Positions 27,050 to 38,882 of a stretch of DNA of 56,842 nt are shown here, piece by piece. The number at the start of each line of letters is the position of its first letter. Positions within the stretch are counted from its first letter, which is position 1. The stretch comes from a virus (taxonomy: Duplodnaviria > Caudoviricetes), in IMG/VR virus record IMGVR_UViG_3300033182_000318, positions 1-56,842 of that record. The stretch is one strand, 5' to 3'. The notes below the pieces were generated by a model. That model was given only the letters and a program-made list of their open reading frames with translations. It was not told the DNA's origin and searched no databases. Made by a program: the position numbers and the translations under genes.

Positions 27050-28335
27050 CAGTCATATTCCAAATCATCTTGGTCTGAGATAATCAAATCTTGTGCATCA
27101 TCTCCAGATATTTCTTCAAACGAACCAGAACCTGGTGTAAATTTACAAAACCAGTTTTTGTTATCTTGTCCATGTCTGAATTTAGCTAATTTGAATTTAA
27201 CAACGTGGGGAGATTTCTGTACCAGAGTGACTACACAGTCCGCATCCATACCTATGGCATCAGATTGGGATAAATGAATTACTGAAGGGGGTTCGTTACC
27301 TCCACCTTCTCTATTCATTTGTGCAGCAGATATAATCGGGATATCATATCTCTGAGCTATTGCTTTGATATCAGCACTTAACGAAGCAACAGCTCGCCAA
27401 TCATCTCCCCCTGACTTCAACAAAGTTAAATAGTCTATATAAACAACAGTTGGCTTATGTTCTTGTATTCTACTAGCAACAACTGCTGGAGAAACTGCTC
27501 CTCTACTACCGTCTACTACTGTAAAACTTCCTTTAATTTTTTTAGGAAGTTCTTGTAAGAATTTTTTGTATTCTCTGATATCAAAGTTTTCACCTTTCAT
27601 TAAATCTAAAGATTTGAAAGTTTCTTTTCCATATTCTGAAGAAAGAAAACTTTGTACCCTAAACCCAATTTGTTTTGAAGGTTGTTCTAAAGATACAAAT
27701 AAAACTTTTTCTCCTGCTTGTAATGCTGAACAAGCCATACGAATTAAAGTCCAAGTTTTTCCTTGTCCTAATCTAGCTCCTATTACCCAGAAATCTCCTC
27801 CTGATGCTCCACCAGTTAAATTATCTAAAGTTGGGAAGCCAGTTGGTATTCCTGCTAAACCTCTTTTATCTTTTGCAGCTATTCTTCTTTCAATATCTGC
27901 TAGTAAATAATCTCCATCTGATACAACATCTAAAGTACTAGAACCAGTATTAACTTTTTTCTGAAGTAACAAAATATCTTGATACAAAGAATCTAATAAC
28001 TTAGAACCTTGTTCTTTTTCTTTTATATCTTCAAAAGTATTTTTCATTAAAGAACTTAACTTAGTTCTAACATAGTTATCTTTAACTTCTGAACAAAAAT
28101 GTTCTAAGTCATCTACCTTGTACAAAGTAACTTCAGGGAAGTTAGTTTTAAAAGCATTAGTACTAGGTAAAGTTCTATGCTGTATAAAGTACTTTTCTAT
28201 CCAAGAATATTCTTCAGGATATGATATAAAGTATTCTCTACTTATTCCTTGTTCAGCTATTACTGCGTAGTCTTTTCTGCGTAGCAAAGCAGAAACAAGA
28301 AGTATTTCAGGATGTGCTGACATCTTCTGCTCCAA
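27049..28335 (-). CDS. dnaB: DnaB-like replicative helicase
   Basis: IPTGFPTLD; Walker A GARLGQGKT; SLEQ; IDYL; AQMNR; DAD; KFRHG. Confidence 0.9.
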   Translation of the reverse strand: MEQKMSAHPEILLVSALLRRKDYAVIAEQGISREYFISYPEEYSWIEKYFIQHRTLPSTNAFKTNFPEVTLYKVDDLEHFCSEVKDNYVRTKLSSLMKNTFEDIKEKEQGSKLLDSLYQDILLLQKKVNTGSSTLDVVSDGDYLLADIERRIAAKDKRGLAGIPTGFPTLDNLTGGASGGDFWVIGARLGQGKTWTLIRMACSALQAGEKVLFVSLEQPSKQIGFRVQSFLSSEYGKETFKSLDLMKGENFDIREYKKFLQELPKKIKGSFTVVDGSRGAVSPAVVASRIQEHKPTVVYIDYLTLLKSGGDDWRAVASLSADIKAIAQRYDIPIISAAQMNREGGGNEPPSVIHLSQSDAIGMDADCVVTLVQKSPHVVKFKLAKFRHGQDNKNWFCKFTPGSGSFEEISGDDAQDLIISDQDDLEYD

Positions 28336-28462
28336 TCGTCTTATCTATTCAGTTGTTACACAAGCTCTTGTGATAAGAAAGTAATTTACACCATATTGAT
28401 TTTTATGTGTAGTTTTTTTAAATATTTTTTTTTACTAGACTGTTTTGTGAAGGAGAAGATAA

Positions 28463-28651
28463 ATGGAAAAATACAAAGACCTTTTAGAAAGAGTTGGATT
28501 TACATTTGCAGAAGCATTCATTGCTTCCATAACTGTAGCTCCACTCATTGAATTAGATGCTTCAACTTTACAGTTGGCAATCATTGCAGGTGCTTCAGCA
28601 GCTCTTGTTGTTGTAAAAGAATTTGTAAAAAATAATATGCCTAGTAAGTAA
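28463..28651 (+). CDS. Holin (r1t-like actinophage type)
   Basis: DLLERVGFTFAEAF...AGASAALVVVK; two TM segments; AAGGAG RBS. Confidence 0.7.
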   Translation: MEKYKDLLERVGFTFAEAFIASITVAPLIELDASTLQLAIIAGASAALVVVKEFVKNNMPSK

Positions 28652-28654
28652 TAC

Positions 28655-28663
28655 TGGTATAAT
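28655..28663 (+). promoter_or_regulatory. Extended -10 promoter for the TLD RNA
   Basis: TGGTATAAT, 7 nt upstream of G1 at 28671. Confidence 0.7.
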
Positions 28664-28670
28664 TATTTTA

Positions 28671-28750
28671 GGGCTGGTACTGGAAAGACTTGCTAAGTGT
28701 TGCGGGACAGTTAGTGAGTAACGAGGGTTCGATTCCCTCCCAGTCCACAA
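28671..28750 (+). ncRNA. tmRNA-like RNA reduced to the tRNA-like domain (TLD only)
   Basis: Acceptor GGGCTGG/CCAGTCC with G3.U70 and discriminator A; stemless D-loop TACTGGAAAG; helix ACTTGCTAA/TTAGTGAGT; T-arm GAGGG-TTCGATT-CCCTC; no anticodon arm or tag ORF. Confidence 0.75.
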
Positions 28751-28751
28751 C

Positions 28752-28940
28752 ATGGACGATTTAGAGAAAGAAATTCAAAGACAAGCTAAAGAGCTAGTAG
28801 CTAGTTTAGAACACCTTTTGTCATTAATAGGTGAATATTCAAATCCTAGAATGTATCGTTGTTCTGTTTGTAAAAGAAAGTTATCCAATCACAAAGAAAA
28901 TATCTTTTGTAAAGACAGAGAGCATTTTACAAAAGGTTGA
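28752..28940 (+). CDS. Small putative Zn-binding protein
   Basis: CSVC...H....C; starts right after the RNA 3' end. Confidence 0.55.
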   Translation: MDDLEKEIQRQAKELVASLEHLLSLIGEYSNPRMYRCSVCKRKLSNHKENIFCKDREHFTKG

Positions 28941-29383
28941 AAATTTTCTCCCAAATTTTTTCTGGGGAAATTATGCCACTAAGGTAAATCGTCTTCTGTT
29001 AGACCCCAATTTAAGCCTTCTGGGATAGTTCTAAGGGATTGTTTTACTTTCTTTGGTGTTTTTTTATATTGGTCTGCTTCATGGCGAATCAGCACCGAAG
29101 TCAAGATGGCGTTTGGCGAAGCGGAAACAAAAAAAAATTTACGATTCTTACTCAACCACAGCCTCGCTTTGCTCGGCACAACAATACTCACTACCATACT
29201 TACAATTACAAATAGTGATATACGTACCGTCTTCATTTTTTGTTGTCATACACATAGAAATCAATCGTATCATATAAAAAAAAGAAGTCCATTTAGTGTG
29301 GGTGGTGAATCGGTTGCCCGACTCGGGTGGTTTCACATCCAAATAGACTTCTTTTGAATATATATATTAAATAAATCAATTTA

Positions 29384-29412
29384 AGAATAGTTCATATCGA
29401 TTTTTTTGTCAA
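29384..29412 (-). promoter_or_regulatory. Sigma70-type promoter
   Basis: TTGACA-17 nt-TATTCT on minus strand. Confidence 0.65.
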
Positions 29413-29522
29413 GGGAATTTGGGGGATTTTTTCGTCTTTAGCTTGTTGCATTGTAATGGACGATTGAACCTTCTTCTCAGAAGTTTTATATCAGTGACTG
29501 AGAAATCCCCCTCAACTTCCCA
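29413..29522 (-). ncRNA. Candidate ~110-nt structured RNA
   Basis: Ends pair (GGGAAGTTGAGGGGGATTT with AAATCCCCCAAATTCCC); TTGTCA-16-TACAAT upstream; no ORF. Confidence 0.35.
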
Positions 29523-29557
29523 CCTAATATTGTATACTATCTATGTTTTATGACAAA

Positions 29558-29701
29558 TTATTCTTCTTCTGTTTTAGCTATTGCTAGTTTTTTACCAAAA
29601 CGTTTATTGTACTGACGACAACCTACATTTCCGCAAACTCTATAGTTATCTCTAATTTTAAATTGGCTTTTACAACTCTTGCAGTTTTCTATAAATTTCA
29701 T
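29558..29701 (-). CDS. Small Zn-finger protein (47 aa)
   Basis: Hand-translated MKFIENCKSCK...VCGNVGC; AAGGAG upstream. Confidence 0.55.
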   Translation of the reverse strand: MKFIENCKSCKSQFKIRDNYRVCGNVGCRQYNKRFGKKLAIAKTEEE

Positions 29702-29885
29702 GCTCTCAGTTTATCTCCTTCTAAAAATTTTCTGTATATAAAAAATGGGTGACCAACGGATAAGTGGAAAAAGGCAAATTTTTGGGGGGGTGGGGTGCAA
29801 AGTTTTTCATGTTAAGTACTCATCACCAATCTTGTGTATAAATCGCTGCTGCATGGCTACTGAGTTGTTAAACGAGAGCTAAATG

Positions 29886-30137
29886 TCAATCCACTAGCTC
29901 TAGCAACCAGCTCCCATTGATTTTTATGCTCTCAAAATCTGTTTTAATCATGTGCTGCTGTCTGGATAAGTATGCTTTAGTTCTCTTATCTGTATTATGG
30001 CTACTGGTTACATTGGTTGGGCTATTTATTGAGAACGTTGCATTGTTATTTACAAAGTTCCTAGAAACTAAATCCTTTAAATCTACTTGTTCTCCACTCA
30101 CTAACCCTAGCATGAAGGCTTTTTCTATATCAATCAT
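29886..30137 (-). CDS. Hypothetical protein (leaderless)
   Basis: 83 aa; TATAAT 6 nt before ATG. Confidence 0.5.
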   Translation of the reverse strand: MIDIEKAFMLGLVSGEQVDLKDLVSRNFVNNNATFSINSPTNVTSSHNTDKRTKAYLSRQQHMIKTDFESIKINGSWLLELVD

Positions 30138-30149
30138 GAGAACATTATA

Positions 30150-30584
30150 CTAAGAAACTGCATCACCATCAATTTCCTGTCTTATAGCTTGTAAGTACTC
30201 CTCTTTGCTCCCATCAACAATCATAACTCCCTGTGTGATTTGTTGTTTTATTTCGGTCTGTTTCGGGGCTTCGAGTCCATATATCTTACTTATTCTATCC
30301 ATAACCGATAAAGCTCTGTCAATAGCTCCTAATTCTCCTTGTTGAACTCTTTCCCATAAGATTAATAAGATTTGATTTAGTCGCTCATATTCTACTTGTC
30401 GGAGTTCATCTGTAGGCTCGGCGATTATGGTTTTCATACTACGTTGAACACTCTTATAGGCTCCACTACTATCAGCATATCCTAATTGCTTTGCAATGAC
30501 CTCATAACTAGCTCCAGCTTTGCGTAATTCTAATGCTTGTCTGTCTTTTTCTCTTACTTCGATTGATTTAGTATTTACTTTCAT
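30150..30584 (-). CDS. HTH protein, probable terminase small subunit
   Basis: ALELRKAGASYEVIAKQLGY HTH; RISKIYGLEAPKQ, a pattern typical of TerS-like proteins. Confidence 0.65.
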   Translation of the reverse strand: MKVNTKSIEVREKDRQALELRKAGASYEVIAKQLGYADSSGAYKSVQRSMKTIIAEPTDELRQVEYERLNQILLILWERVQQGELGAIDRALSVMDRISKIYGLEAPKQTEIKQQITQGVMIVDGSKEEYLQAIRQEIDGDAVS

Positions 30585-30865
30585 GTACTCTGTTTATCTT
30601 ACTCTCAAACTGTCATCTATGCAAAGCCAAACCCCATGAATTTTGAATATCGCATAGAGGTCTTGAATTATGTCTTGTTTCGCCATAACTTGTAGTACCT
30701 AAATACTATTTTTAATCTTAAATAGCTACTATATGAGGACTGGAAATAACTATTTATGTTGTGTTTATTCTTTTTATTTACCTATTATATTAAATGATTT
30801 AATGACACCGAAGCCGAATTTTTTGAAAATTTCTTGCATTTGAGGTCAAAACCCTACCTTTGAGC

Positions 30866-30883
30866 TTGTGAAAAATTTCACAA
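30866..30883. promoter_or_regulatory. Palindromic operator matching the Rex box
   Basis: TTGTGAA-AAAT-TTCACAA. Confidence 0.55.
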
Positions 30884-30941
30884 AGTACAACTATTAGGCA
30901 TGTACTCAACTAATTTTTGCTCAAAAATGGCTATTTTTTTC

Positions 30942-30978
30942 ATGAATATTTATACATGAAAAATGTATAAATATACAT
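30942..30978. repeat. AT-rich inverted repeat
   Basis: ATGAATATTTATACAT-GAAAA-ATGTATAAATATACAT (15/16). Confidence 0.7.
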
Positions 30979-31092
30979 AAATTTTTAGTCCTCTTGTCTA
31001 AAATCCCATTAAATAAGGCTTTAAAATAGGCTTATTTTATGGGCTTTTTTCCAGCTTATTTATTGAAAAAATCTTAAAAATAGGCTACCTAT

Positions 31093-31121
31093 TTGCGAGG
31101 ACTATAGTATACTTATTATAA
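31093..31121 (+). promoter_or_regulatory. Putative promoter for the + strand island
   Basis: TTGCGA plus overlapping TATACT/TATTAT -10 candidates; spacing imperfect. Confidence 0.35.
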
Positions 31122-31660
31122 GGTATTTTATATCTTAAACCATCTTGGATAAAGAGGACAATAGGTGGTAGTTAGCCTACAGTCGTTGTCGGAGGACAAA
31201 ATGGAACTGGCTTTCAGCCTAAGTGCAAAATCTCTCCAAGAGGACACACAGAGCTTGTGTTTTCAAGCTGACTAGAGGACAATAATATACTCTTTTGACC
31301 TTACTGTCAGATGAGGACACAAGTTAAGCCTTCGGTGTATGAGGGCTTAGTCTGTTGTGTTGGTGGTTGATATTGGAGCAACCATACGACTTGCGGAGGA
31401 CGTCTCAGTATAGCGTGATACACCATACCCAAGACCAAAAGTCTTGAGGTCAGTAATCCACTTCAGTTCAAGAAGTAAAAACTACCAAGCTAGGTAGAGG
31501 ACTAACGTTTTATGTGTTAGAAATTGTCTGTGCGTTGGTGTGTAGGGAGAGGACACTTTCCCGTGTAGCCAAATAGTTTGTACAAAAGTACCATAATCAT
31601 AAAAAAGAGGTCTTTTCTTAATAACCAAGTTCCTACATAATAGAGGACGCCTAGTGGATA
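31120..31660 (+). ncRNA. Candidate large structured ncRNA / 5' leader
   Basis: No credible ORF; at least 10 hairpins or helices, e.g. 31252-31269, 31325-31349, 31430-31446, 31482-31497. Confidence 0.5.
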
Positions 31661-31666
31661 ATCGTA

Positions 31667-31941
31667 CAATACGCATTACAATGTCCTCATAGAAATGGGG
31701 GTAATATATGGCTAGAATTGGCTCATGCAGAAGATGTGGAGGACACAATTCCTCAACTTGCTCCTGCAATAGATTAATGATTAATACTAATTTTCCAATT
31801 CAAATGGGATTGGATAAAAAAAGAGGTCAAGCTCAAAAAATACTAATCAAAAATCCTGAAAAAATACAACAAATAATAGACATATTAACTAATTAATTAA
31901 AACTAACTAACTAACTAATGAGGACATTACAATGCGTATTG
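31667..31941. repeat. Inverted repeat pair A (31667-31690 / 31918-31941)
   Basis: CAATACGCATT-AC-AATGTCCTCAT vs ATGAGGACATT-AC-AATGCGTATTG; 22/24 bp. Confidence 0.9.
31708..31896 (+). CDS. Small Cys/His-rich protein
   Basis: CRRCGGHNSSTC; GGGGG RBS; enclosed by IR pair A. Confidence 0.6.
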   Translation: MARIGSCRRCGGHNSSTCSCNRLMINTNFPIQMGLDKKRGQAQKILIKNPEKIQQIIDILTN

Positions 31942-31983
31942 AACATACACTTCCTAATGTACTCCGAGAAAGAGAGTATATAT

Positions 31984-32265
31984 ATGGATAAACAACAATT
32001 AGCCGAATTAGTTGAGTATTTTGGTGAGGTCAAATTCACTAGAAAACAACTTAATCTAATTCGAGAAATCTTAAATATGAACACAATGTCATTAGTCAAT
32101 GAGTACAGCAACAAAAACTCTAAGAGTTTCAAAGTTGCATTAGATAAATTGGCTAGTGTTAATTATGATATAGCAAACGTTATGACAGAGGTCAGCCCAT
32201 CATTTAACCGAGATAAATGGTTTGATGAGGGCAACAAAACCTCAAATGCTCATATGATTTGGTAA
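31984..32265 (+). CDS. Hypothetical protein
   Basis: Start set to MDKQQL (purine-rich RBS); C-terminal SPSFNRDKWF. Confidence 0.6.
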   Translation: MDKQQLAELVEYFGEVKFTRKQLNLIREILNMNTMSLVNEYSNKNSKSFKVALDKLASVNYDIANVMTEVSPSFNRDKWFDEGNKTSNAHMIW

Positions 32266-32280
32266 TATTAAGGAGTACAT

Positions 32281-32400
32281 ATGAGTAAATTTCAACCAAA
32301 GTTCGTTTGTTATTGGTGTAAAACACAATTAGCAGAGGGCGAACAACTTACAGAAATAAAAGGTAACTTTTACTGTAAAAATTGCGATAATGTTAGGTGA
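32281..32400 (+). CDS. Zn-finger miniprotein (39 aa)
   Basis: Hand-translated MSKFQPKFVCYWC...GNFYCKNC; AAGGAG RBS. Confidence 0.65.
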   Translation: MSKFQPKFVCYWCKTQLAEGEQLTEIKGNFYCKNCDNVR

Positions 32401-32548
32401 GGTCGATACACGTATAAAATGTATGTGTAATCAATTCATGGCTAAAGTTTCCGTAATGGCTAACGTAAAGAGTACAACACTTGTACAATTCTTTTGTTTC
32501 CATTGTGGTGCGAGTACTGTAGCTAAAGAACAAGCAAAAAGAGTATAA
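32390..32548 (+). CDS. Zn-ribbon miniprotein (52 aa)
   Basis: Hand-translated MLGEVDTRIKCMC...FFCFHCG. Confidence 0.5.
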   Translation: MLGEVDTRIKCMCNQFMAKVSVMANVKSTTLVQFFCFHCGASTVAKEQAKRV

Positions 32549-32640
32549 AACAAGATTTCGGAGTACATTATGAAGTGTATGGTATGAATTATAACAATCA
32601 GTAATCTACGATAGGTCTGTGTCCTCGTGGAAGGATAAAA

Positions 32641-33546
32641 ATGAATAAAGATAGAGTTATCTTATCAGAGGACGTAAGTTCTCTAATCCCTAAAGGCTCT
32701 TTAGACAATTATGTTGAGAGAGTATTAGCAGGAGGTCAAACAGACCTACAAATACTAGCATACGCACACAAAGTAATGCACAATGTCCTCATTACTGGGG
32801 ATACAGGTGTTGGTAAAACTCATAGTGTTTCAGCTCATGCTGAGAGTACAAGTTTACCATTTGTTTCCATAGCTTGTAATGGTGCTACTAACCCAGACCA
32901 AATGTTTGGGCAATTTAAACCATCAGAGGACGGAAATGGCTTTGAGTGGGTAGACGGAATTGTTACAACTTTAGTAAGAAATGGTGGTGTCCTCTTACTA
33001 GATGAGGTTAATTTTATGAAACCTGACATTTCGGCTGCCCTCCACCCTTTGCTAGATAGTCGCAGAACACTAACTCTAGTTGAAAATGGTGGCGAGGTCA
33101 TCAAAGCTCATAAGGAATTTCAAGTAGTTGCTTGTATAAATCCTAATTATGAGGGCACTAGACCATTAAACGAAGCATTTAAAAATCGCTTTGGTATTCA
33201 TTTAGAATACACCTACGAGGGCAACAATGAGGATATTCTCGTTGAGAATAGACCTACTTTGCTTGAACTCGCAGACAAGCTAAGAGTTGCTCGTGAAAAT
33301 GGTACGATTGCTACACCTGTGAGTACAAACTCACTTATGGAATTTGGCGAATTTGTTGAGGACTTAGGTCTGGAATTTGCTATATCCAATTTCGTTAATA
33401 AATTCGATATTGATGAAAGAGCAGCAATCAAAGAGTACTTTGATGTATTAATACCACAAATCGCTAACGAATTTGGCGAGGACGTTCCTGACATGTTTGT
33501 CAATGATGTACCTCAATCAAATGACTTAGATGATACAGATAACTAA
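32641..33546 (+). CDS. MoxR/CbbQ-NirQ-type AAA+ ATPase
   Basis: GDTGVGKT; LLLDEVN; NPNYEGTRPLNEAFKNRF. Confidence 0.9.
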   Translation: MNKDRVILSEDVSSLIPKGSLDNYVERVLAGGQTDLQILAYAHKVMHNVLITGDTGVGKTHSVSAHAESTSLPFVSIACNGATNPDQMFGQFKPSEDGNGFEWVDGIVTTLVRNGGVLLLDEVNFMKPDISAALHPLLDSRRTLTLVENGGEVIKAHKEFQVVACINPNYEGTRPLNEAFKNRFGIHLEYTYEGNNEDILVENRPTLLELADKLRVARENGTIATPVSTNSLMEFGEFVEDLGLEFAISNFVNKFDIDERAAIKEYFDVLIPQIANEFGEDVPDMFVNDVPQSNDLDDTDN

Positions 33547-33561
33547 GAGAGGACTAACTTA

Positions 33562-35529
33562 ATGGATTATGAAAAAATGTCCATTGAGGAATATAACGAG
33601 TTGATAGAGAGAATGGTTGAGGACACCTCAGCCAACTCTCTTGATGAAATGTCTGCTGAGGACAAACAACGTAAATCTATGGTTGATATTATCGGTCAGA
33701 GTTTTGCGAGTACATTTACTAAGGTAAATCGTATTTTACTTGGCGACTATGAAACTCAAATATTTCTTGAGGACGGTAGACAAAAAATGGTTGATGCTCC
33801 TGCATGGACAGATGGCGAGGACGTATATTTGAATAAAAGATACGTTGCGAAATCTTTTGCTAATTTGGTAGAAAGTAACCAAATTAACTTTAAGAACATA
33901 GCAGAGGTCAAAGGTCTTAACTATCATGAGTTGGCTCATATTTTCTTTACACCAAGAATGAATAGCAAGATAGCGAAAGAGGTCAGAAAAATGGCTGATA
34001 ACTTTCCTGATTATTGGTATGCGTACAACGTGTTAGAGGACTTACGAGCAGAAATGTCTATGGTTATGATATTCCCAAAAATTGTTGATTATTTTTCAAT
34101 CGCAGTTTTTAACTATATCTTAAACCAAGAGGACGGTGATGTTGCAAATTCTTATATGTTGTTAAGTGGTAGATATTTTTTACCAATCGAAACACGTATG
34201 GAAATGAGGTCATTATTCGCACAAGAATATGGCGAAAAATTCACAAAGAATATGGAACAGATTGTCGAGGACTATGTTAAAAATATCACTTATACAAACA
34301 CCCGATATCAAGAGGGCTATGACTTAATCGAAAGATTTGTCATAGAAGTGTTAAAGCCTATGAGGACAAAATCTGGTAAGGCTTTACCGAAGTGCATAGG
34401 TGGTAGTCAACACGTACATGATAAAGATGCAGGAGCAGGTCGAGGTCATTGGGGAAAGAAAACCTTACAAGGTAGTCTTTCTAAAGGTACTACAAGAGTA
34501 CAAGACCAAAAACTTGTTAAACCTTATATAGAGGAATTAATTAATGAAGTTAAGGAAACTATAGAGGACATTAAATCTAACGAAGTTACTAACTTAGGAA
34601 CGAAAGCTGGACGAGGTCAAACTGATAACCAATCGGTTAAAGATGTAAAAGCTAGTTTAGAGGAAATTATCGAAATATACGAGTCCAATCCTACTTTCAA
34701 AAATGATGTTGAAATTACTAAAAAAGATATATCAGCAAAAATTGAGAAAGCAGTTGAGGACATTAACGTTGTCGGTATTACTGCTCAACCTATGCTTGTT
34801 GCACCTTCTCCGAGTACACTTAGTCTAAAATCTCAAATTGATAGATATTTTAGACAATTAAGAATTGACTTAGAGCAAGATTGGTTACGAGGTCGTAAGA
34901 CAGGTATCGTAGATATGAACAGATTAATGAGGACACAACATCTTCCTAGAGCAGATGTTTTCAAAAAATGGAAACCTAGCGAGGAGGACGCTGCTACTAG
35001 CGAGTGTGTTATATTGCTTGATATGTCAGGCAGTATGGACAGCGTTGCGAGGTCAGCTAGTGAAGTTGTGTGGATATTAAAACAATCGTTAGATAAAATC
35101 GGTGTGAGGACTACAGTATTAGGCTTTGCAAATCAATGTTATATTATTTACAAACCTAATCAAAAAGCAATTAGAGGACAAGTTCCTGTATATGCTACTG
35201 GTGGTGGAACTCAACCCGAGTACGCATTGAAACAAGCATTAAACGTTTTACGTACAAGTGATAGAAACAACAAATTTGTTGTTGCCCTCACTGATGGTGC
35301 TTGGACAGATAGCGAAAAAGAAATCGAATTAGTTAGAGAAATTACAAAAGAGGTCGATAGTTCAAATCTCTTATTCTATGGTGGATATTTCGACATGGAG
35401 AGGGCTAAGGACAAAGACAAATATGCTTTTGGAAATTTTACTAACATTAAGCAAATAAAGAAGTTAGAGGACACTTTAGATATTGTAAAATCTATCGTTT
35501 CCGATATAACTAATAAATATATATACTAA
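33562..35529 (+). CDS. VWA-domain partner with N-terminal HExxH-like region
   Basis: APAWTDG; HELAH; NVLED; MIDAS DMSGS, GGGT, LTDG. Confidence 0.85.
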   Translation: MDYEKMSIEEYNELIERMVEDTSANSLDEMSAEDKQRKSMVDIIGQSFASTFTKVNRILLGDYETQIFLEDGRQKMVDAPAWTDGEDVYLNKRYVAKSFANLVESNQINFKNIAEVKGLNYHELAHIFFTPRMNSKIAKEVRKMADNFPDYWYAYNVLEDLRAEMSMVMIFPKIVDYFSIAVFNYILNQEDGDVANSYMLLSGRYFLPIETRMEMRSLFAQEYGEKFTKNMEQIVEDYVKNITYTNTRYQEGYDLIERFVIEVLKPMRTKSGKALPKCIGGSQHVHDKDAGAGRGHWGKKTLQGSLSKGTTRVQDQKLVKPYIEELINEVKETIEDIKSNEVTNLGTKAGRGQTDNQSVKDVKASLEEIIEIYESNPTFKNDVEITKKDISAKIEKAVEDINVVGITAQPMLVAPSPSTLSLKSQIDRYFRQLRIDLEQDWLRGRKTGIVDMNRLMRTQHLPRADVFKKWKPSEEDAATSECVILLDMSGSMDSVARSASEVVWILKQSLDKIGVRTTVLGFANQCYIIYKPNQKAIRGQVPVYATGGGTQPEYALKQALNVLRTSDRNNKFVVALTDGAWTDSEKEIELVREITKEVDSSNLLFYGGYFDMERAKDKDKYAFGNFTNIKQIKKLEDTLDIVKSIVSDITNKYIY

Positions 35530-35601
35530 ATAAATCGAGGACATTAGACCTATCGTAGATTACTGATTATCAAAATTACTCTTTATTAATTAGGAGGACA
35601 T

Positions 35602-35769
35602 ATGACACTAATGCAAATGTTTTTCAAAGATTGTGATAATTGTGGGAGTACTACAATTTGGACAAAACTTGAACAACGCAGCGAAACTCAAACTCTAGTC
35701 GAGTGCGACCAATGTGAAAGGCAGGAAATCATGCCGACTACAGTACACGAGGACGTTTTAGATGGTTGA
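35602..35769 (+). CDS. Zn-ribbon miniprotein (55 aa)
   Basis: Hand-translated CDNCG...VECDQC; AGGAGG RBS. Confidence 0.65.
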   Translation: MTLMQMFFKDCDNCGSTTIWTKLEQRSETQTLVECDQCERQEIMPTTVHEDVLDG

Positions 35770-36148
35770 TGACATTAAAAATATTTTAATATCGTTAAAT
35801 CTAATTCGTACACAAAAGTTATCCTTAGATGACCAAGAGAGTACATTAAAAGCTAAGTTAATGCAATACCTTAAAAATAGTGATATGAAAAGTTTTTCAA
35901 TATCACATGAGGGCTTAAACATTAAATCTACTCTAGTCAAAAATGACAGAATAGAAATTGATGAATTAGGACTTATTGAGGACTTATCTACAGAACAATA
36001 TAATAAAATTATTAAAAAATCTATAGATAAAAAATTGCTTGAAATCGCCATTAAAAATGGGGATATATCAGAGGACATAGCTAAGAAATATCTCAAAGTC
36101 AAAACAGGTAAAGACTATATAAAACTTAATGTTGAGGAGGACAAGTAA
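35762..36148 (+). CDS. Hypothetical protein
   Basis: 128 aa; coiled-coil N-terminus. Confidence 0.6.
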   Translation: MVDDIKNILISLNLIRTQKLSLDDQESTLKAKLMQYLKNSDMKSFSISHEGLNIKSTLVKNDRIEIDELGLIEDLSTEQYNKIIKKSIDKKLLEIAIKNGDISEDIAKKYLKVKTGKDYIKLNVEEDK

Positions 36149-36447
36149 TGATTAATCCAATACAAAAATCCCCCTCAGCATTGAGGACTTGGGTTGATAA
36201 AAACACAAGAGAAAAAGTCTATTTACCGATTGACTTAGCGAGGTCTTTAGATGTGGATATCAAGACAGTTCGTAGATGGTTGAGAACAAAGAAAATTTTG
36301 CCTAGTTATCATTTAACGCAGGGAAAAAATTCAATACCAATATGGACTGCTGAGGACATTATCTATGTACAAAATTGGTATGTAAACAAATCAAAAGGAA
36401 AACAACCTAAATATAGAGAGGAGGTCAGTACAGATGATAACATTTAG
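36148..36447 (+). CDS. MerR/Xis-like HTH DNA-binding protein
   Basis: DLARSLDVDIKTVRRW...WTAEDI. Confidence 0.7.
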   Translation: MINPIQKSPSALRTWVDKNTREKVYLPIDLARSLDVDIKTVRRWLRTKKILPSYHLTQGKNSIPIWTAEDIIYVQNWYVNKSKGKQPKYREEVSTDDNI

Positions 36448-36637
36448 TAGTGGCTTACATTTAGCAATTATATTCGTAATGGCTTTAGCTATGCTTTATA
36501 TACTTTTCGAGGTCTATAACGTAGTTAGGCTTTATATTGCCGAATATAAATACAACAAAGAAAAACCAATAAACATTGACTTTAACAAGAGTACAGATGT
36601 TGATGAGTTTTTCAATAATACTTACAAAACATGGTAA
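36434..36637 (+). CDS. Small membrane protein
   Basis: N-terminal TM helix. Confidence 0.55.
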   Translation: MITFSSGLHLAIIFVMALAMLYILFEVYNVVRLYIAEYKYNKEKPINIDFNKSTDVDEFFNNTYKTW

Positions 36638-36852
36638 AAAAACCAAGTCTAAACGAGGGCGATACCATAGAACACGCTTTAACTGTTGAAACTGTTATAG
36701 CTGGTCAAAAAATATGGATAAAGACAGGAGCTACCACTACTGTGAGGACAGGCGAAAGTCCGAGTGGTGCTAGTAAACGTTTAGCCAACTTTGTAAGCAG
36801 GAGGACTTCACAACAAGTGCAAGAAATCCGAAACGCAGGTAAATCAGAGTAA
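36631..36852 (+). CDS. Hypothetical protein
   Basis: 73 aa; last gene before terminator. Confidence 0.55.
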   Translation: MVKKPSLNEGDTIEHALTVETVIAGQKIWIKTGATTTVRTGESPSGASKRLANFVSRRTSQQVQEIRNAGKSE

Positions 36853-36882
36853 TTTTGAGTACATAATTCATACGTACCTTTT

Positions 36883-36932
36883 GGGGATAGTAGTTAAATT
36901 TTATTATTTAGCTACTATCCCCATTTTTTTTT
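36883..36932 (+). terminator. Intrinsic terminator of the + strand island
   Basis: GGGGATAGTAGTTAAAT / ATTTAGCTACTATCCCC stem followed by a T-run. Confidence 0.85.
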
Positions 36933-37496
36933 GTGCTCTTTTTTTTGAGATAGAACCCCCCCAGCAGCCCACAAAAAAAAGAGTGCATTTTTCAGTTTTC
37001 ATGACACACCCAGCAGAGAAATATCAGAATATTGAGAACAATTTTTGTTAAATTCCCACGGAGGCTAGGCTTCCAAAGAGAACAGATTTGCTTCGCTGCC
37101 ATTAAATTATGTTCTCTTTTCTTCTAATTCTCGCCATCTGGCTTTTGCAAGAAACTGTGCTCGGGAAGGAAGGAGTGAATTTTTGAGATGCTCTCATTTT
37201 TTTTTCACCCAAGGGGGAATGTCAGGAAAAAATAAAGAGCTCACCAAACACCAACCCCACCTCCATCTTCAAAAAAAAAAAGTACTCAGAACCCATCTCA
37301 GCATCATTTTTGCTCTCTTTTTTTAGTGCGAACCGTTTGCAAGAAGAATTGTCCTCTTTTTTTTACGCAACATAATAAATGTCCTCGTTTTTTGAAAATA
37401 CACCTTTAAGGGCACTTTAAAAATGCACTCGGAACTTTCAAAACTTCCACAAATGAAAAATGATATTTTTGACTAACTATATAAGAGTGCGAAAGT

Positions 37497-38882
37497 TTAA
37501 AGACTCCAAGGACTTTTCTCACGAACAAAATCAATTAATGGTGCTAACGCTTCAAACTTAAATCCACGTTCTGCCCATGCTAAAGCCATAGCAACCATAC
37601 TGTCAGGTGTGTGACCATTTCCAAAGATATCATCAAAACCAGCATATTTATGGTCTTGATACATACTTTCTATCATTGGACTTTGAATTAATCCACGCTC
37701 ACACGCAGAAATATATTCAGAAAATAAATTCTTTTTATTACTTCCAGTAATTACATAAGGAATTGAATCAACTGTTATATAATCTTCTACTACATTACCA
37801 ATACCAGTAGCATCATGAACTAATTTACCAGGATATTTAGCTAATCTTTGTTCAGCTTTTGCTACCATATCTCCCCAAGGTTCACGGTGTGTTCTTTCAA
37901 AAGCAACTACACGCCAAGGCTCAACATCAGTTCTTAATGTAACTATAACTGTACAATCTCTTTGTTTCGCCCAGTCCACTCCAGTTATGTAAGTGCCCTC
38001 CCCCATATATTTTTCGAACTGGTATTCTACACCGACTTCTCCAGAAACCTTATCGTGTGTTTGTAATGAAAACATTTCATCAACTTTCTCTGCTTCTATA
38101 GCTCTACCTTCAAATGAAGGCTCTTGCATATCAAACTCTATATCCCACATAGCTTGTGAAACTTCACTTCTTTTTCTTTCTACTTCAGAAGGTTCTAACC
38201 AACCATGTGGTTTAACTGTTTCTCTCCAACACCATTCATATACTGGATAACCTTTTTCTTTTGCTCGTCTAAGCATTTCTGTCATAGTTTTATCTGGATA
38301 TTGGTGTGTAGAAGAAGCAACTGTTTGTGTTTGAATACCATTCTTAGCCATTGGCTGTCCCTGTGCTGCTTCTAAGATATCTAGCTCCATTTCATCTATC
38401 TCATCTAGTCTTAATCTTTGTGGGTGCTGACCACGAACAGACCTTTGTGAAGCTGTTAAAGCTCTAATCCAAGCTCCTGAAGTTAAATTAGTTGAATATT
38501 TGTTTGGTGCATCTACTAAAAGACCTGTAGGTGCGTTTTTATGTGCCCATGCTTCTAAAGATATTTCATAAACACGAAGTGATTGTGCTGCTGAACCTCC
38601 TAGTACTGTTACCTGAGCTCCTAAAGTTACTGCTTCCGTCAAGGCTAATAATCCTAAAGTATTAGTTTTTCCTCCCATACCACGACTAGCTTTCCAAATA
38701 GAAAAAGGATGCCTACCGAAGTAAGCATCAGCGAATGCCTCAAATGGAGATTGGTGGTGTGGACAAATAGATGTTCTTGGTATGGATATTCCCCATAATA
38801 AACGAACTACTTCCCATAATTCATCATCATCTTGGGGTGGTCTGCCTAGAATTAGCTGTTTTTTTGTTTCTGTTTGTTCCAT
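37497..38882 (-). CDS. terL: Terminase large subunit
   Basis: SRGMGGKT; VRG...LRLDEIDE; nuclease GVDWAK...D; PDSMVAMALA. Confidence 0.85.
   Translation of the reverse strand: MEQTETKKQLILGRPPQDDDELWEVVRLLWGISIPRTSICPHHQSPFEAFADAYFGRHPFSIWKASRGMGGKTNTLGLLALTEAVTLGAQVTVLGGSAAQSLRVYEISLEAWAHKNAPTGLLVDAPNKYSTNLTSGAWIRALTASQRSVRGQHPQRLRLDEIDEMELDILEAAQGQPMAKNGIQTQTVASSTHQYPDKTMTEMLRRAKEKGYPVYEWCWRETVKPHGWLEPSEVERKRSEVSQAMWDIEFDMQEPSFEGRAIEAEKVDEMFSLQTHDKVSGEVGVEYQFEKYMGEGTYITGVDWAKQRDCTVIVTLRTDVEPWRVVAFERTHREPWGDMVAKAEQRLAKYPGKLVHDATGIGNVVEDYITVDSIPYVITGSNKKNLFSEYISACERGLIQSPMIESMYQDHKYAGFDDIFGNGHTPDSMVAMALAWAERGFKFEALAPLIDFVREKSPWSL

What the first reader, a model, noticed from the sequence alone, without database searches (positions are those of the whole stretch)
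31667..36873. Every gene block of the island is bracketed by its own long-range inverted repeat, forming a non-crossing cloverleaf
Seen: five IR pairs with different sequences. A 31667-31690/31918-31941 (22/24) encloses one gene. B 31944-31967/32558-32581 (23/24) encloses three. C 32596-32627/35536-35568 (23+8 bp) encloses AAA+VWA (2.9 kb). D 35570-35582/36846-36858 encloses five. E 32582-32592/36863-36873 encloses C and D. Arms lie within 0-4 nt of each other, never cross, and each left arm ends upstream of or at the RBS. A-C have a small internal loop or mismatch. Established: RNase III cuts ~20-bp helices, both local hairpins in T7 early mRNA and long-range stems around 16S/23S rRNA. Inference: rRNA-style processing of a ~5.8-kb phage transcript into end-paired, stabilised mRNA units. 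Alternatives are ssDNA folding or cassette exchange/inversion sites.
Basis: partly seen in the sequence, partly recalled or inferred. Interest (0 to 1): 0.88.

Follow-up and report, generated by a model that had tools for sequence, protein, structure and literature searches.

The report
Nested RNA stems bracket phage genes
In the early-gene operon of an uncultured marine phage, each block of genes lies between two complementary sequences that most likely pair in the messenger RNA, like the stems around ribosomal RNAs, so the long message is probably divided into separate pieces with paired ends.

Summary
All five inverted-repeat pairs exist at the stated places. A, B and C each score above the best stem in all 60 shuffles. 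D and E are ordinary by length but exceptional for their positions. Two diverged sister phages keep the layout while the arm letters change. I hand-read six compensatory double changes. In the most distant phage the arms are almost wholly different. Non-Watson-Crick positions are mostly G-T on the + strand (21 against 7 A-C; 9 against 0 in the most distant phage). This points to pairing in the + strand RNA, not to a DNA site. In three salt-marsh metatranscriptome assemblies, contigs of a ~95% relative stop within a few bases of the stems, while DNA contigs run on at three of four boundaries. The tool rates this a weak hint. My reading is rRNA-style leader-trailer helices that divide a phage early operon into units with paired ends. 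RNase III is the likeliest cutter but is not shown. There is no sign of inversion or of a recombinase. The scan has reported gene-bracketing stems before on other phage DNA (e1-6111902, e1-4036886 and others). Three literature searches found no description. The island also carries an unexplained one-strand hexamer (GAGKDC, about every 65 nt, absent elsewhere), which a sister phage replaces with GCGKDC.

The parts
31133..31661 (+). ORF-free structured leader RNA that heads the operon; its 3' end lies 3 nt before arm A-left
   Evidence: RNA contigs of three runs cover 31133/31216 to 31661/31667/31675. Loose letters at 31133 (X12) and 31661 (X15) look like Illumina adapter (identified from recall), which suggests true fragment ends. 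Fold -156.8 kcal/mol, z = -3.3, 0 of 100 shuffles as stable. No Rfam family.
31664..31690 (+). Arm A-left
   Evidence: Pairs with 31918-31944, 24 of 27 WC, -33.3 kcal/mol.
31708..31896 (+). Gene in loop A (62 aa, no family hit)
   Evidence: The whole A unit (both arms plus gene) is present in 4 contigs and absent in 6.
31918..31944 (+). Arm A-right; starts with a GAGGAC copy
31944..31969 (+). Arm B-left
   Evidence: Pairs with 32556-32581, 24 WC + 1 G-T of 26, -37.0 kcal/mol. An equivalent stem is found in 10 of 10 loci examined.
31984..32548 (+). Three small genes in loop B (93, 39 and 52 aa; the 39-aa product is a zinc-ribbon/LIM-like protein)
   Evidence: The loop is 288, 341, 457, 586 or 621 nt in different relatives while the stem persists.
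32556..32581 (+). Arm B-right; holds a GAGTAC copy
32582..32592 (+). Arm E-left (outer helix round units C and D)
   Evidence: 11 of 11 with 36863-36873. 5 of 3000 random window pairs score as high. RNA contigs of three runs begin here, at 32586, 32590 and 32592.
32596..32627 (+). Arm C-left: outer helix 32596-32618 and inner helix 32619-32627
   Evidence: 23 of 23 plus 8 WC + 1 G-T. -53.8 kcal/mol.
32641..35529 (+). Loop C: MoxR/CobS-like AAA+ ATPase (32641-33546) and VWA-domain protein (33562-35529)
   Evidence: AAA_5 E 1.5e-23, VWA_2 E 8e-7. phrog_249. Weak CobS/CobT hits far below cut-off.
35536..35568 (+). Arm C-right: inner helix 35536-35544 (holds GAGGAC), bulged T35545, outer helix 35546-35568
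   Evidence: The same one-base 3'-arm bulge occurs in L015 and L016.
35570..35582 (+). Arm D-left
   Evidence: 13 of 13 with 36846-36858. 1 of 3000 random window pairs score as high. RNA contigs of three runs begin at 35564, 35572 and 35580.
35602..36852 (+). Five small genes in loop D (55, 128, 99, 67 and 73 aa)
   Evidence: All five have homologues in L015 and four in L016.
36846..36858 (+). Arm D-right (overlaps the last stop codon)
36863..36873 (+). Arm E-right
   Evidence: RNA contigs of two runs end at 36873 and 36878.
36882..36923 (+). Intrinsic-terminator-like hairpin with a T run, closing the operon
   Evidence: 18 pairs, loop 6, then nine T and a G.

Best explanation
The ten arms are five helices of the + strand early transcript. 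They are leader-trailer helices of the kind that flank 16S and 23S rRNA, built here around protein-coding gene blocks and nested: A, B, then E enclosing C and D. Each block is looped out, with its ribosome-binding site 5-10 nt past the 5' arm and its stop codon just before the 3' arm. An endonuclease then separates the blocks at or near the helix bases. A double-strand-specific RNase III is the most likely enzyme for the 24-41 bp helices A, B and C. The result would be units whose 5' and 3' ends stay paired, which would shelter them from end-dependent decay and let each unit have its own lifetime. Shown: the pairs exist, are non-random and are conserved by compensation. Weakly hinted: the RNA occurs as pieces bounded by the stems. 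Inferred: the enzyme, the stabilising effect, and a single primary transcript.
For: (1) A, B and C exceed the best stem of 0 of 60 shuffles, and D and E are positionally significant. (2) The layout recurs in L015 (AAA+ 77% identical) and L016 (59%). In each of these two loci the two top-scoring stems are the B and C equivalents (57.0 and 54.5; 58.5 and 50.0), against shuffle maxima of 46.0 and 47.5. The D equivalents reach 2 of 3000 and 3 of 3000. (3) Compensation, which I read by hand from the printed arms with no tool count: among the GAG-motif lineages there are two double changes in C, two in B, one in D and one in E. In L016 the arms are almost entirely different letters but still give -44.9 (B) and -61.0 (C) kcal/mol. 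(4) Strand: over 16 stem instances (369 positions) there are 327 WC, 21 G-T, 7 A-C and 14 other pairs. L016 alone has 9 G-T and 0 A-C. G-T pairs only in the + strand. (5) A one-base bulge on the 3' arm between the inner and outer C helices is kept in all three lineages. (6) RNA: in three metatranscriptome assemblies filed under three study codes, contigs of a ~95% relative end at 31661/31667/31675, begin at 32586/32590/32592, begin at 35564/35572/35580 and end at 36873/36878. No loose end is listed at the last three places. DNA contigs of run X5 run through the first three boundaries. (7) No promoter-like match lies upstream of 32586 or 35564. The region has 19 promoter-like matches against 29.9 +/- 5.3 in shuffles. 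The only strong + strand terminator is at 36882-36923. (8) Established background: B. subtilis RNase III cuts long-range intramolecular mRNA duplexes (PMC11780869, abstract and passages read). RNase III cuts the stems flanking 16S and 23S rRNA (PMC6582327, abstract start in the listing).
Against: The RNA evidence comes from assembled contigs, which the tool itself rates a weak hint. The contigs give no strand and no exact ends. The boundary positions scatter by 5-16 nt and lie at helix bases and junctions, not clearly inside the helices with a 2-nt stagger. One RNA contig ends at 35545, the bulge, which may be an assembly effect of the repeat. The three RNA runs are of one year and habitat and may be one campaign. 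D and E are too short for RNase III. Stem A has two A-C mismatches, which would be G-U on the other strand. Only three diverged lineages exist, so the covariation rests on few independent events, and I did no tree-aware test. No RNase III gene was found among the 37 phage ORFs scanned, so a host enzyme must be assumed, and the host is unknown. The simple sigma-70 scan cannot exclude internal promoters.
Confidence: 0.55

Rival explanations
1. The helices form in the RNA but are not cleavage sites. They would act as structural devices on an intact polycistronic message. They could insulate each block's folding, place a stable duplex right before each ribosome-binding site as a 5' stabiliser, bring each stop codon next to its own start for ribosome re-use, or hinder Rho and exonucleases.
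For: This reading shares all the structural evidence. The distance from helix end to start codon is a constant 14-20 nt in W, L015 and L016. The arms lie outside the ORFs, so ribosomes would not melt them. Stable duplexes can cause drop-outs in RNA-seq libraries, which could break contigs at stems without any cleavage.
Against: RNA contigs of three runs begin and end at the same stems, and adapter-like letters directly abut 31133 and 31661, which suggests real molecule ends. Helices of 24-41 bp are ordinary RNase III substrates, so escaping cleavage would need special protection.
Confidence: 0.22
2. The repeats are DNA-level elements. They could be boundaries of mobile or exchangeable gene cassettes, inversion sites, or structures of single-stranded DNA during replication or recombination.
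For: Unit A (both arms plus its gene) is present in 4 contigs and cleanly absent in 6. The content of loop B varies (288-621 nt) between close relatives. So the stem-bounded blocks do behave as evolutionary modules.
Against: Every pair has its own sequence, so no single recombinase could read them all. No integrase, invertase or transposase appears among the island or neighbouring ORFs. Gene order and orientation are the same in all 10 contigs. No inversion or back-joining joint is listed inside the island in the DNA run or the three RNA runs. The excess of G-T over A-C fits a single strand, and that strand is the one whose genes are expressed. Arms 0.2-4.3 kb apart cannot form cruciforms in duplex DNA.
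Confidence: 0.08
3. Each block is an independent transcript with its own promoter and end. The repeats would be by-products, for example of the dense hexamer motif and its complement seeding chance complementarity.
For: The loop-proximal end of stems A, B and C is a motif/anti-motif duplex. Several other perfect 11-13 nt pairs in the island also contain the motif.
Against: The motif explains only 6 of 24-41 paired positions. Shuffles never reach the observed scores. Compensatory changes lie outside the motif. No promoter-like or terminator-like sites occur at the unit boundaries.
Confidence: 0.05

Closest known systems
Leader-trailer processing helices flanking 16S and 23S rRNA in bacterial rrn operons (RNase III)
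   Same: Long-range helices are formed by the sequences on either side of each mature unit. Several units sit in one transcript. The helices are >=20 bp and are kept by compensation. The units are separated at the helices (PMC6582327, abstract start in the listing; the rest is textbook knowledge).
   Different: The loops here hold protein-coding gene blocks of a phage, with the ribosome-binding site placed just inside each helix. There are five helices, and one is nested round two others. I recognised no BoxA antitermination box. I saw a similar 11-base stretch in the printed leaders of W, L015 and L016, but MAFFT did not align it in L016, and I did not test it.
RNase III sites in phage T7 early mRNA (R0.3 to R1.3) and SP82 early RNA
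   Same: A phage early polycistronic message is cut between genes by the host RNase III. The remaining duplex ends stabilise the products (recalled knowledge; PMC4858673, abstract start in the listing, says T7 infection raises RNase III activity).
   Different: Those sites are local hairpins of a few tens of nucleotides between genes. Here the two strands of each helix lie 0.2-4.3 kb apart and enclose the genes.
Long-range intramolecular mRNA duplexes cut by RNase III in B. subtilis (Taggart et al. 2025, PMC11780869)
   Same: Pairing across hundreds of nucleotides within mRNAs serves as an RNase III substrate, with paired cuts (abstract and passages read).
   Different: Those are scattered single duplexes in cellular mRNAs. 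This is a designed, contiguous, nested set that brackets every gene block of an operon.
5'-3' UTR pairing of S. aureus icaR mRNA
   Same: The two ends of an mRNA pair across the coding region, and RNase III acts on the duplex (PMC3868564, title and abstract start in the listing).
   Different: That is a single gene, and by recall the pairing there hides the ribosome-binding site and represses. Here the ribosome-binding sites lie outside the helices.
PeSL (promoter-early stem-loop) cassettes of T4-type phages
   Same: Small early genes behave as exchangeable modules bounded by structured elements (recalled; named in earlier finding e1-128495).
   Different: PeSLs are copies of one shared local promoter-plus-hairpin. 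Here every pair is unique, long-range and without a promoter-like match.

Membership tests
rRNA-type leader-trailer processing helices (RNase III) | The helix is formed by the sequences that flank the unit on both sides | tested here: met
   Five of five pairs enclose whole gene blocks. The arms lie in untranslated spacers.
rRNA-type leader-trailer processing helices (RNase III) | About 20 bp or more of nearly continuous double-stranded RNA | tested here: met
   Met for A (27), B (24-34) and C (32-41 with a one-base bulge). Not met for D (8-13 bp) or E (7-11 bp) taken alone.
rRNA-type leader-trailer processing helices (RNase III) | Pairing is kept in evolution by compensatory change, on the transcribed strand | tested here: met
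   Six double changes, read by hand from the printed arms among the GAG-motif lineages. New arm sequences in L016. G-T 21 against A-C 7. Only three diverged lineages are available.
rRNA-type leader-trailer processing helices (RNase III) | Cuts on both strands of the helix with a 2-nt 3' overhang | tested here: inconclusive
   RNA contig ends fall at or near the helix bases but scatter by 5-16 nt. Only contigs were available, not reads.
rRNA-type leader-trailer processing helices (RNase III) | Cleavage depends on RNase III | not testable with these tools
   The host is unknown. No RNase III is found among the 37 phage ORFs scanned.
T7-type intercistronic RNase III hairpins | A local hairpin between two genes | tested here: not met
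   The arms of each pair are 227 to 4270 nt apart.
Invertible DNA segments / site-specific recombination sites | Repeats are read by a nearby recombinase, and both orientations occur | tested here: not met
   There is no recombinase family hit in or next to the island. The five pairs have five different sequences. All 10 contigs compared share one orientation, and no inversion joint is listed in the island.
Integron gene cassettes (attC) | A local imperfect hairpin site at the 3' end of each cassette, plus an integrase | tested here: not met
   The repeats span the genes and do not form a local site. No integrase was found.

The most novel reading that the evidence does not exclude
The nested helices and the one-strand hexamer that tiles the same transcripts (GAGKDC, about every 65 nt, never closer than 26-28 nt, absent from the rest of the genome on both strands, replaced by GCGKDC in a sister phage whose terminase is 87% identical) are two halves of one undescribed RNA-level system. 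In this reading a sequence-specific reader marks or coats the early RNA at regular intervals while the helices partition it into closed loops. The loop-proximal end of the long helices is itself a motif/anti-motif duplex. In W, L013 and L015 that duplex uses exact complements. In L016 it uses G-U wobble partners.
Probability: 0.2. Interest if true: 0.92.

Novelty: new variant of a known kind. Interest (0 to 1): 0.7.

Why it matters
If this is right, a phage has taken the architecture cells use to mature ribosomal RNA and applied it to messenger RNA. One long early transcript would be folded into a chain of helices, with each gene block looped out, released, and left with paired ends. That would be a compact way to set different lifetimes and doses for genes that share one promoter. 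It would also give early messages protection against host end-dependent RNases. It could explain how gene blocks can be gained or lost (unit A, the contents of loop B) without disturbing their neighbours. This scan has met the same layout in several unrelated phages, so it may be a general and so far undescribed design rule of phage early operons. This locus is a good test case. It has three diverged lineages, and public metatranscriptomes already contain the RNA, so end mapping at nucleotide resolution is possible without a cultured host.

Tried and rejected
Megablast of 31400-37000 against 50,697 phage records gave no match. ARAGORN found no tRNA in the window. Rfam at E<=1 on 28000-38000 gave only a sub-threshold tmRNA hit outside the island and one chance sRNA hit.

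Sixty AAA+ relatives at 27-35% identity show no comparable hexamer enrichment. The one-strand GGCGAG word of L053/L054 is irregularly spaced and was dropped. The terminase relatives at 55% (L088, L089) have only coding tandem repeats. The genome-contig scan gave only 43-50% terminase relatives in several phyla, so the host stays unknown. PDB phmmer and NCBIfam gave nothing for the 144-aa neighbour, whose PHROG label 'Rnase E' I could not confirm.

Alignment A5 of whole B units put the left arm of L012 and the right arm of L016 out of register. I therefore did not run the count of structure pairs. The compensatory changes are read by hand from the printed arms.

For the hexamer I found no lattice period and no 10.5-bp phasing. 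There is no preference for unpaired RNA. So I rejected a helical-face DNA lattice and a CsrB-like loop display. I judged a Chi-like end-protection reading weak because it does not explain the complete avoidance elsewhere. A Type III or ISP restriction-decoy reading is weak because 17 reverse copies lie in and beside the island.

From the read laying the following are told here only, as the tool asks. RNA cover is 0-1.5 on 36884-38000, against 5-12 in the DNA run. Cover of units A and B is low or absent. Contig depths differ between units (leader 34-65, C 17-42, D 11-32). Depth per contig cannot rank genes, and a part without cover proves nothing. The break at 33953 in X11 and X12 carries a loose end and is probably a strain branch. 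No listed DNA piece is shown crossing 36873.


Full report
WHAT THE WINDOW IS. The window is a complete IMG/VR virus record of 56,842 nt, classed linear and 81% complete. Almost all genes lie on the - strand. They include tail, major head, portal, primase, DnaB-type helicase, PolA, a UvsX-like recombinase, WhiB and a terminase-like large subunit. The one long + strand stretch is the 'island', about 30.6-36.9 kb. It holds an ORF-free leader, eleven ORFs including a MoxR/CobS-like AAA+ ATPase and a VWA protein, and one strong terminator-like hairpin at 36882-36923.

THE OBSERVATION.
- All five inverted-repeat pairs are present at the stated coordinates. A has 24 of 27 Watson-Crick pairs. B has 23 of 24. 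C has 23 of 23 plus an inner helix of 8 WC and one G-T, with T35545 bulged between the two. D has 13 of 13 and E has 11 of 11.
- Neighbouring arms are 0-4 nt apart, nothing crosses, and E encloses C and D.
- Each left arm ends 14-20 nt before a start codon. Each right arm starts within about 20 nt after a stop codon, or over it in the case of D.
- With an ungapped stem score, C, B and A (54.5, 53.5, 45.0) are the three best stems of the region. No shuffle out of 60 reaches any of them (maximum 44.5).
- D and E are not unusual by length, because four other perfect 13-mer pairs and many 11-mers occur in the same 6.4 kb. At their particular positions, however, only 1 and 5 of 3000 random window pairs do as well.
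- Predicted duplex energies run from -12 (E) to -54 kcal/mol (C).

RELATIVES.
- Scans with the AAA+, VWA and terminase proteins found one narrow clade. It contains a group 95-97% identical to the window (L007, L012, L013, L014, L078, L079, L080), L015 (AAA+ 77%), the 3.5-kb fragment L081, and L016, which comes from the same contig as L011 (AAA+ 59%, VWA 37%).
- The terminase is 87-92% identical across the three lineages, so the island evolves much faster than the rest of the phage.
- In L015 and L016 the two highest-scoring long-range stems are again those round the small-gene block and round AAA+/VWA (57.0 and 54.5; 58.5 and 50.0). Shuffle maxima there are 46.0 and 47.5.
- A B-type stem was found in 10 of 10 loci examined, although its loop is 288, 341, 457, 586 or 621 nt.
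- D equivalents lie directly after C-right and at the end of the last gene in both sister phages (2 and 3 of 3000). E equivalents are clear in L015 (7 of 3000) and marginal in L016 (123 of 3000).

COMPENSATION AND STRAND.
- I read compensatory changes by hand from the printed arms. No tool counted them. Between the window and L015, stem C differs at two positions in each arm and both are compensated. B shows two compensated positions among the GAG-motif lineages. D and E show one each.
- In L016 the arms are almost wholly different. Only a core of 8 letters of stem C is shared. The helices are nonetheless longer: 25 bp, a one-base bulge, then 16 bp for C, at -61 kcal/mol. The one-base bulge on the 3' arm is kept in all three lineages.
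- Over 16 stem instances (369 positions, not independent) I count 327 WC, 21 G-T, 7 A-C and 14 other pairs. In L016 there are 9 G-T and 0 A-C. G-T pairs only on the + strand, which is the sense strand of the enclosed genes.
- Stem A is the exception, with two A-C positions.

RNA.
- The index of public runs lists seven salt-marsh metatranscriptomes that hold part of the stretch. I laid three of them (X11, X12, X15, filed under three study codes) and one DNA run (X5) on 29500-38000. All are assembled contigs of a relative about 95% identical.
- Every listed RNA contig in the island is bounded by the stems. The leader runs from 31133/31216 to 31661/31667/31675. The gene of unit A runs 31704-31920. 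AAA+/VWA begins at 32586, 32590 or 32592 and in one run continues to 35545. The last block begins at 35564, 35572 or 35580 and ends at 36797, 36873 or 36878.
- No loose end is listed at the last three boundaries. At 31133 and 31661 the loose letters look like Illumina adapter (my recall), which suggests real molecule ends.
- One DNA contig of X5 runs from 30547 to 35381 and another from 35434 past 35580. So DNA contigs cross three of the four boundaries. No listed DNA piece crosses 36873.
- The tool calls such agreement a weak hint. Contigs give no strand and no exact ends.
- No joint that goes back or changes strand is listed inside the island.

MECHANISM.
- I take the arms to be helices of one early transcript that loop out each gene block, as the leader-trailer helices do for 16S and 23S rRNA.
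- The blocks are then separated at or near the helix bases. The 24-41 bp helices A, B and C are ordinary substrates for RNase III, which is known to cut long-range mRNA duplexes (PMC11780869).
- The short helices D and E, stacked end to end with C and B (spacers 0-4 nt), would hold the ends together.
- After cutting, each unit would keep a terminal duplex right next to its ribosome-binding site. This is the position of known 5' stabilisers (recalled).
- The steps from 'helix' to 'cut by RNase III' and 'stabilised' are inference.
- The main rival is that the helices work without cleavage. DNA-level readings are unlikely: five different sequences, no recombinase, one orientation in all 10 contigs, and the strand asymmetry.
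- The blocks do behave as evolutionary modules. Unit A, arms and gene together, is present in 4 contigs and cleanly absent in 6.

CONTEXT THAT MAY BELONG TO THE SAME SYSTEM.
- The island is tiled by GAG[G/T][A/T/G]C followed by a base other than C. There are 89 + strand copies between 30657 and 36857, in all three reading frames and in non-coding RNA. The median spacing is 64 nt and none is closer than 28 nt.
- Seventeen reverse copies lie only in and beside the island, between 29821 and 38000. Three of these sit at the loop-proximal ends of the A, B and C left arms.
- There is no copy on either strand in the other ~48 kb, where 11-13 and 28 are expected under order-0/1 models.
- The confinement repeats in two other contigs: 28 of 28 and 41 of 41 GAGGAC copies lie inside the island.
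- L016 instead has 97 copies of GCG[G/T][A/T/G]C and only 3 of the GAG form. Its sites often lie within a few bases of those of the window in the codon alignment.

KNOWN OR NEW.
- Three literature searches returned no paper describing gene blocks of a phage operon bracketed by their own long-range helices. The library covers open-access papers and preprints only.
- This scan has reported similar layouts on other DNA (e1-6111902, e1-4036886, e1-5940985, e1-4038265).
- I class the finding as a new variant of a known kind: rRNA-type processing helices applied, nested, to phage mRNA.

Noticed in passing
window 30657-36857 (+), with reverse copies 29821-30993 and 37287-38000: A one-strand hexamer GAGKDC occurs 89 times at a median spacing of 64 nt and never closer than 28 nt. 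It lies in all reading frames and in non-coding RNA. It follows the direction of transcription on both sides of the island. It is absent from the other ~48 kb on both strands, where 11-13 and 28 copies are expected. The same confinement holds in two related contigs.
   Followed up: partly
L016 4750-11400 (same contig as L011 3964-10582): A sister phage with an 87% identical terminase tiles its island with GCGKDC (97 copies, median spacing 62) in place of GAGKDC (3 copies). One letter of the word has changed throughout. The sites often lie within 1-4 nt of the window's sites in the codon alignment.
   Followed up: partly
window 31133-31661: The ORF-free leader appears in three metatranscriptome assemblies as a discrete ~530-nt RNA. 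Adapter-like letters lie directly at 31133 and 31661. It folds better than all 100 shuffles (z -3.3), holds about 12 motif copies and matches no Rfam family.
   Followed up: partly
window, whole: GATC (0 seen, 177 expected), GGCC (0, 49) and CGCG (0, 49) are absent from all 56.8 kb, and GCGC occurs 5 times (49 expected). This is strong avoidance of restriction-type palindromes.
   Followed up: no
window 28671-28750: A tRNA-like element matches the Rfam tmRNA model below threshold (36.2 bits, gathering score 47, E 1e-11). ARAGORN calls neither a tRNA nor a tmRNA there.
   Followed up: no
window 36925-37400: The spacer between the island and the terminase-like gene is rich in homopolymers and holds repeated 'A-run + GAG.GCA / GAGGAC' boxes on both strands. 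The DNA run X5 has one contig joint on opposite strands between 36944 and 37120. This could be a strain inversion or a genome end.
   Followed up: no
window 32607-32614 and 35550-35557; L015, L081 and L016 equivalents: An 8-base core of stem C (TACGATAG / CTATCGTA) is kept in sequence in all lineages, while the rest of the arms changes. L016 has one G-G mismatch in it. It may be a recognition or cleavage box inside the helix.
   Followed up: no
window 31662-31667 / 32582-32587: TCGTAC before A-left can pair with GTATGA after B-right, which is the start of E-left. In relatives without unit A the same six bases extend stem B. So E-left has an alternative partner, and a further helix may enclose A plus B.
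   Followed up: partly
window 30150-30584 (-): A 144-aa protein with a helix-turn-helix-like N-terminus is transcribed away from the island and is 79-86% identical in the sister phages. It hits only PHROG 645 (labelled 'Rnase E'). It has no Pfam, NCBIfam or PDB match. Its mRNA carries sense-strand motif copies.
   Followed up: partly
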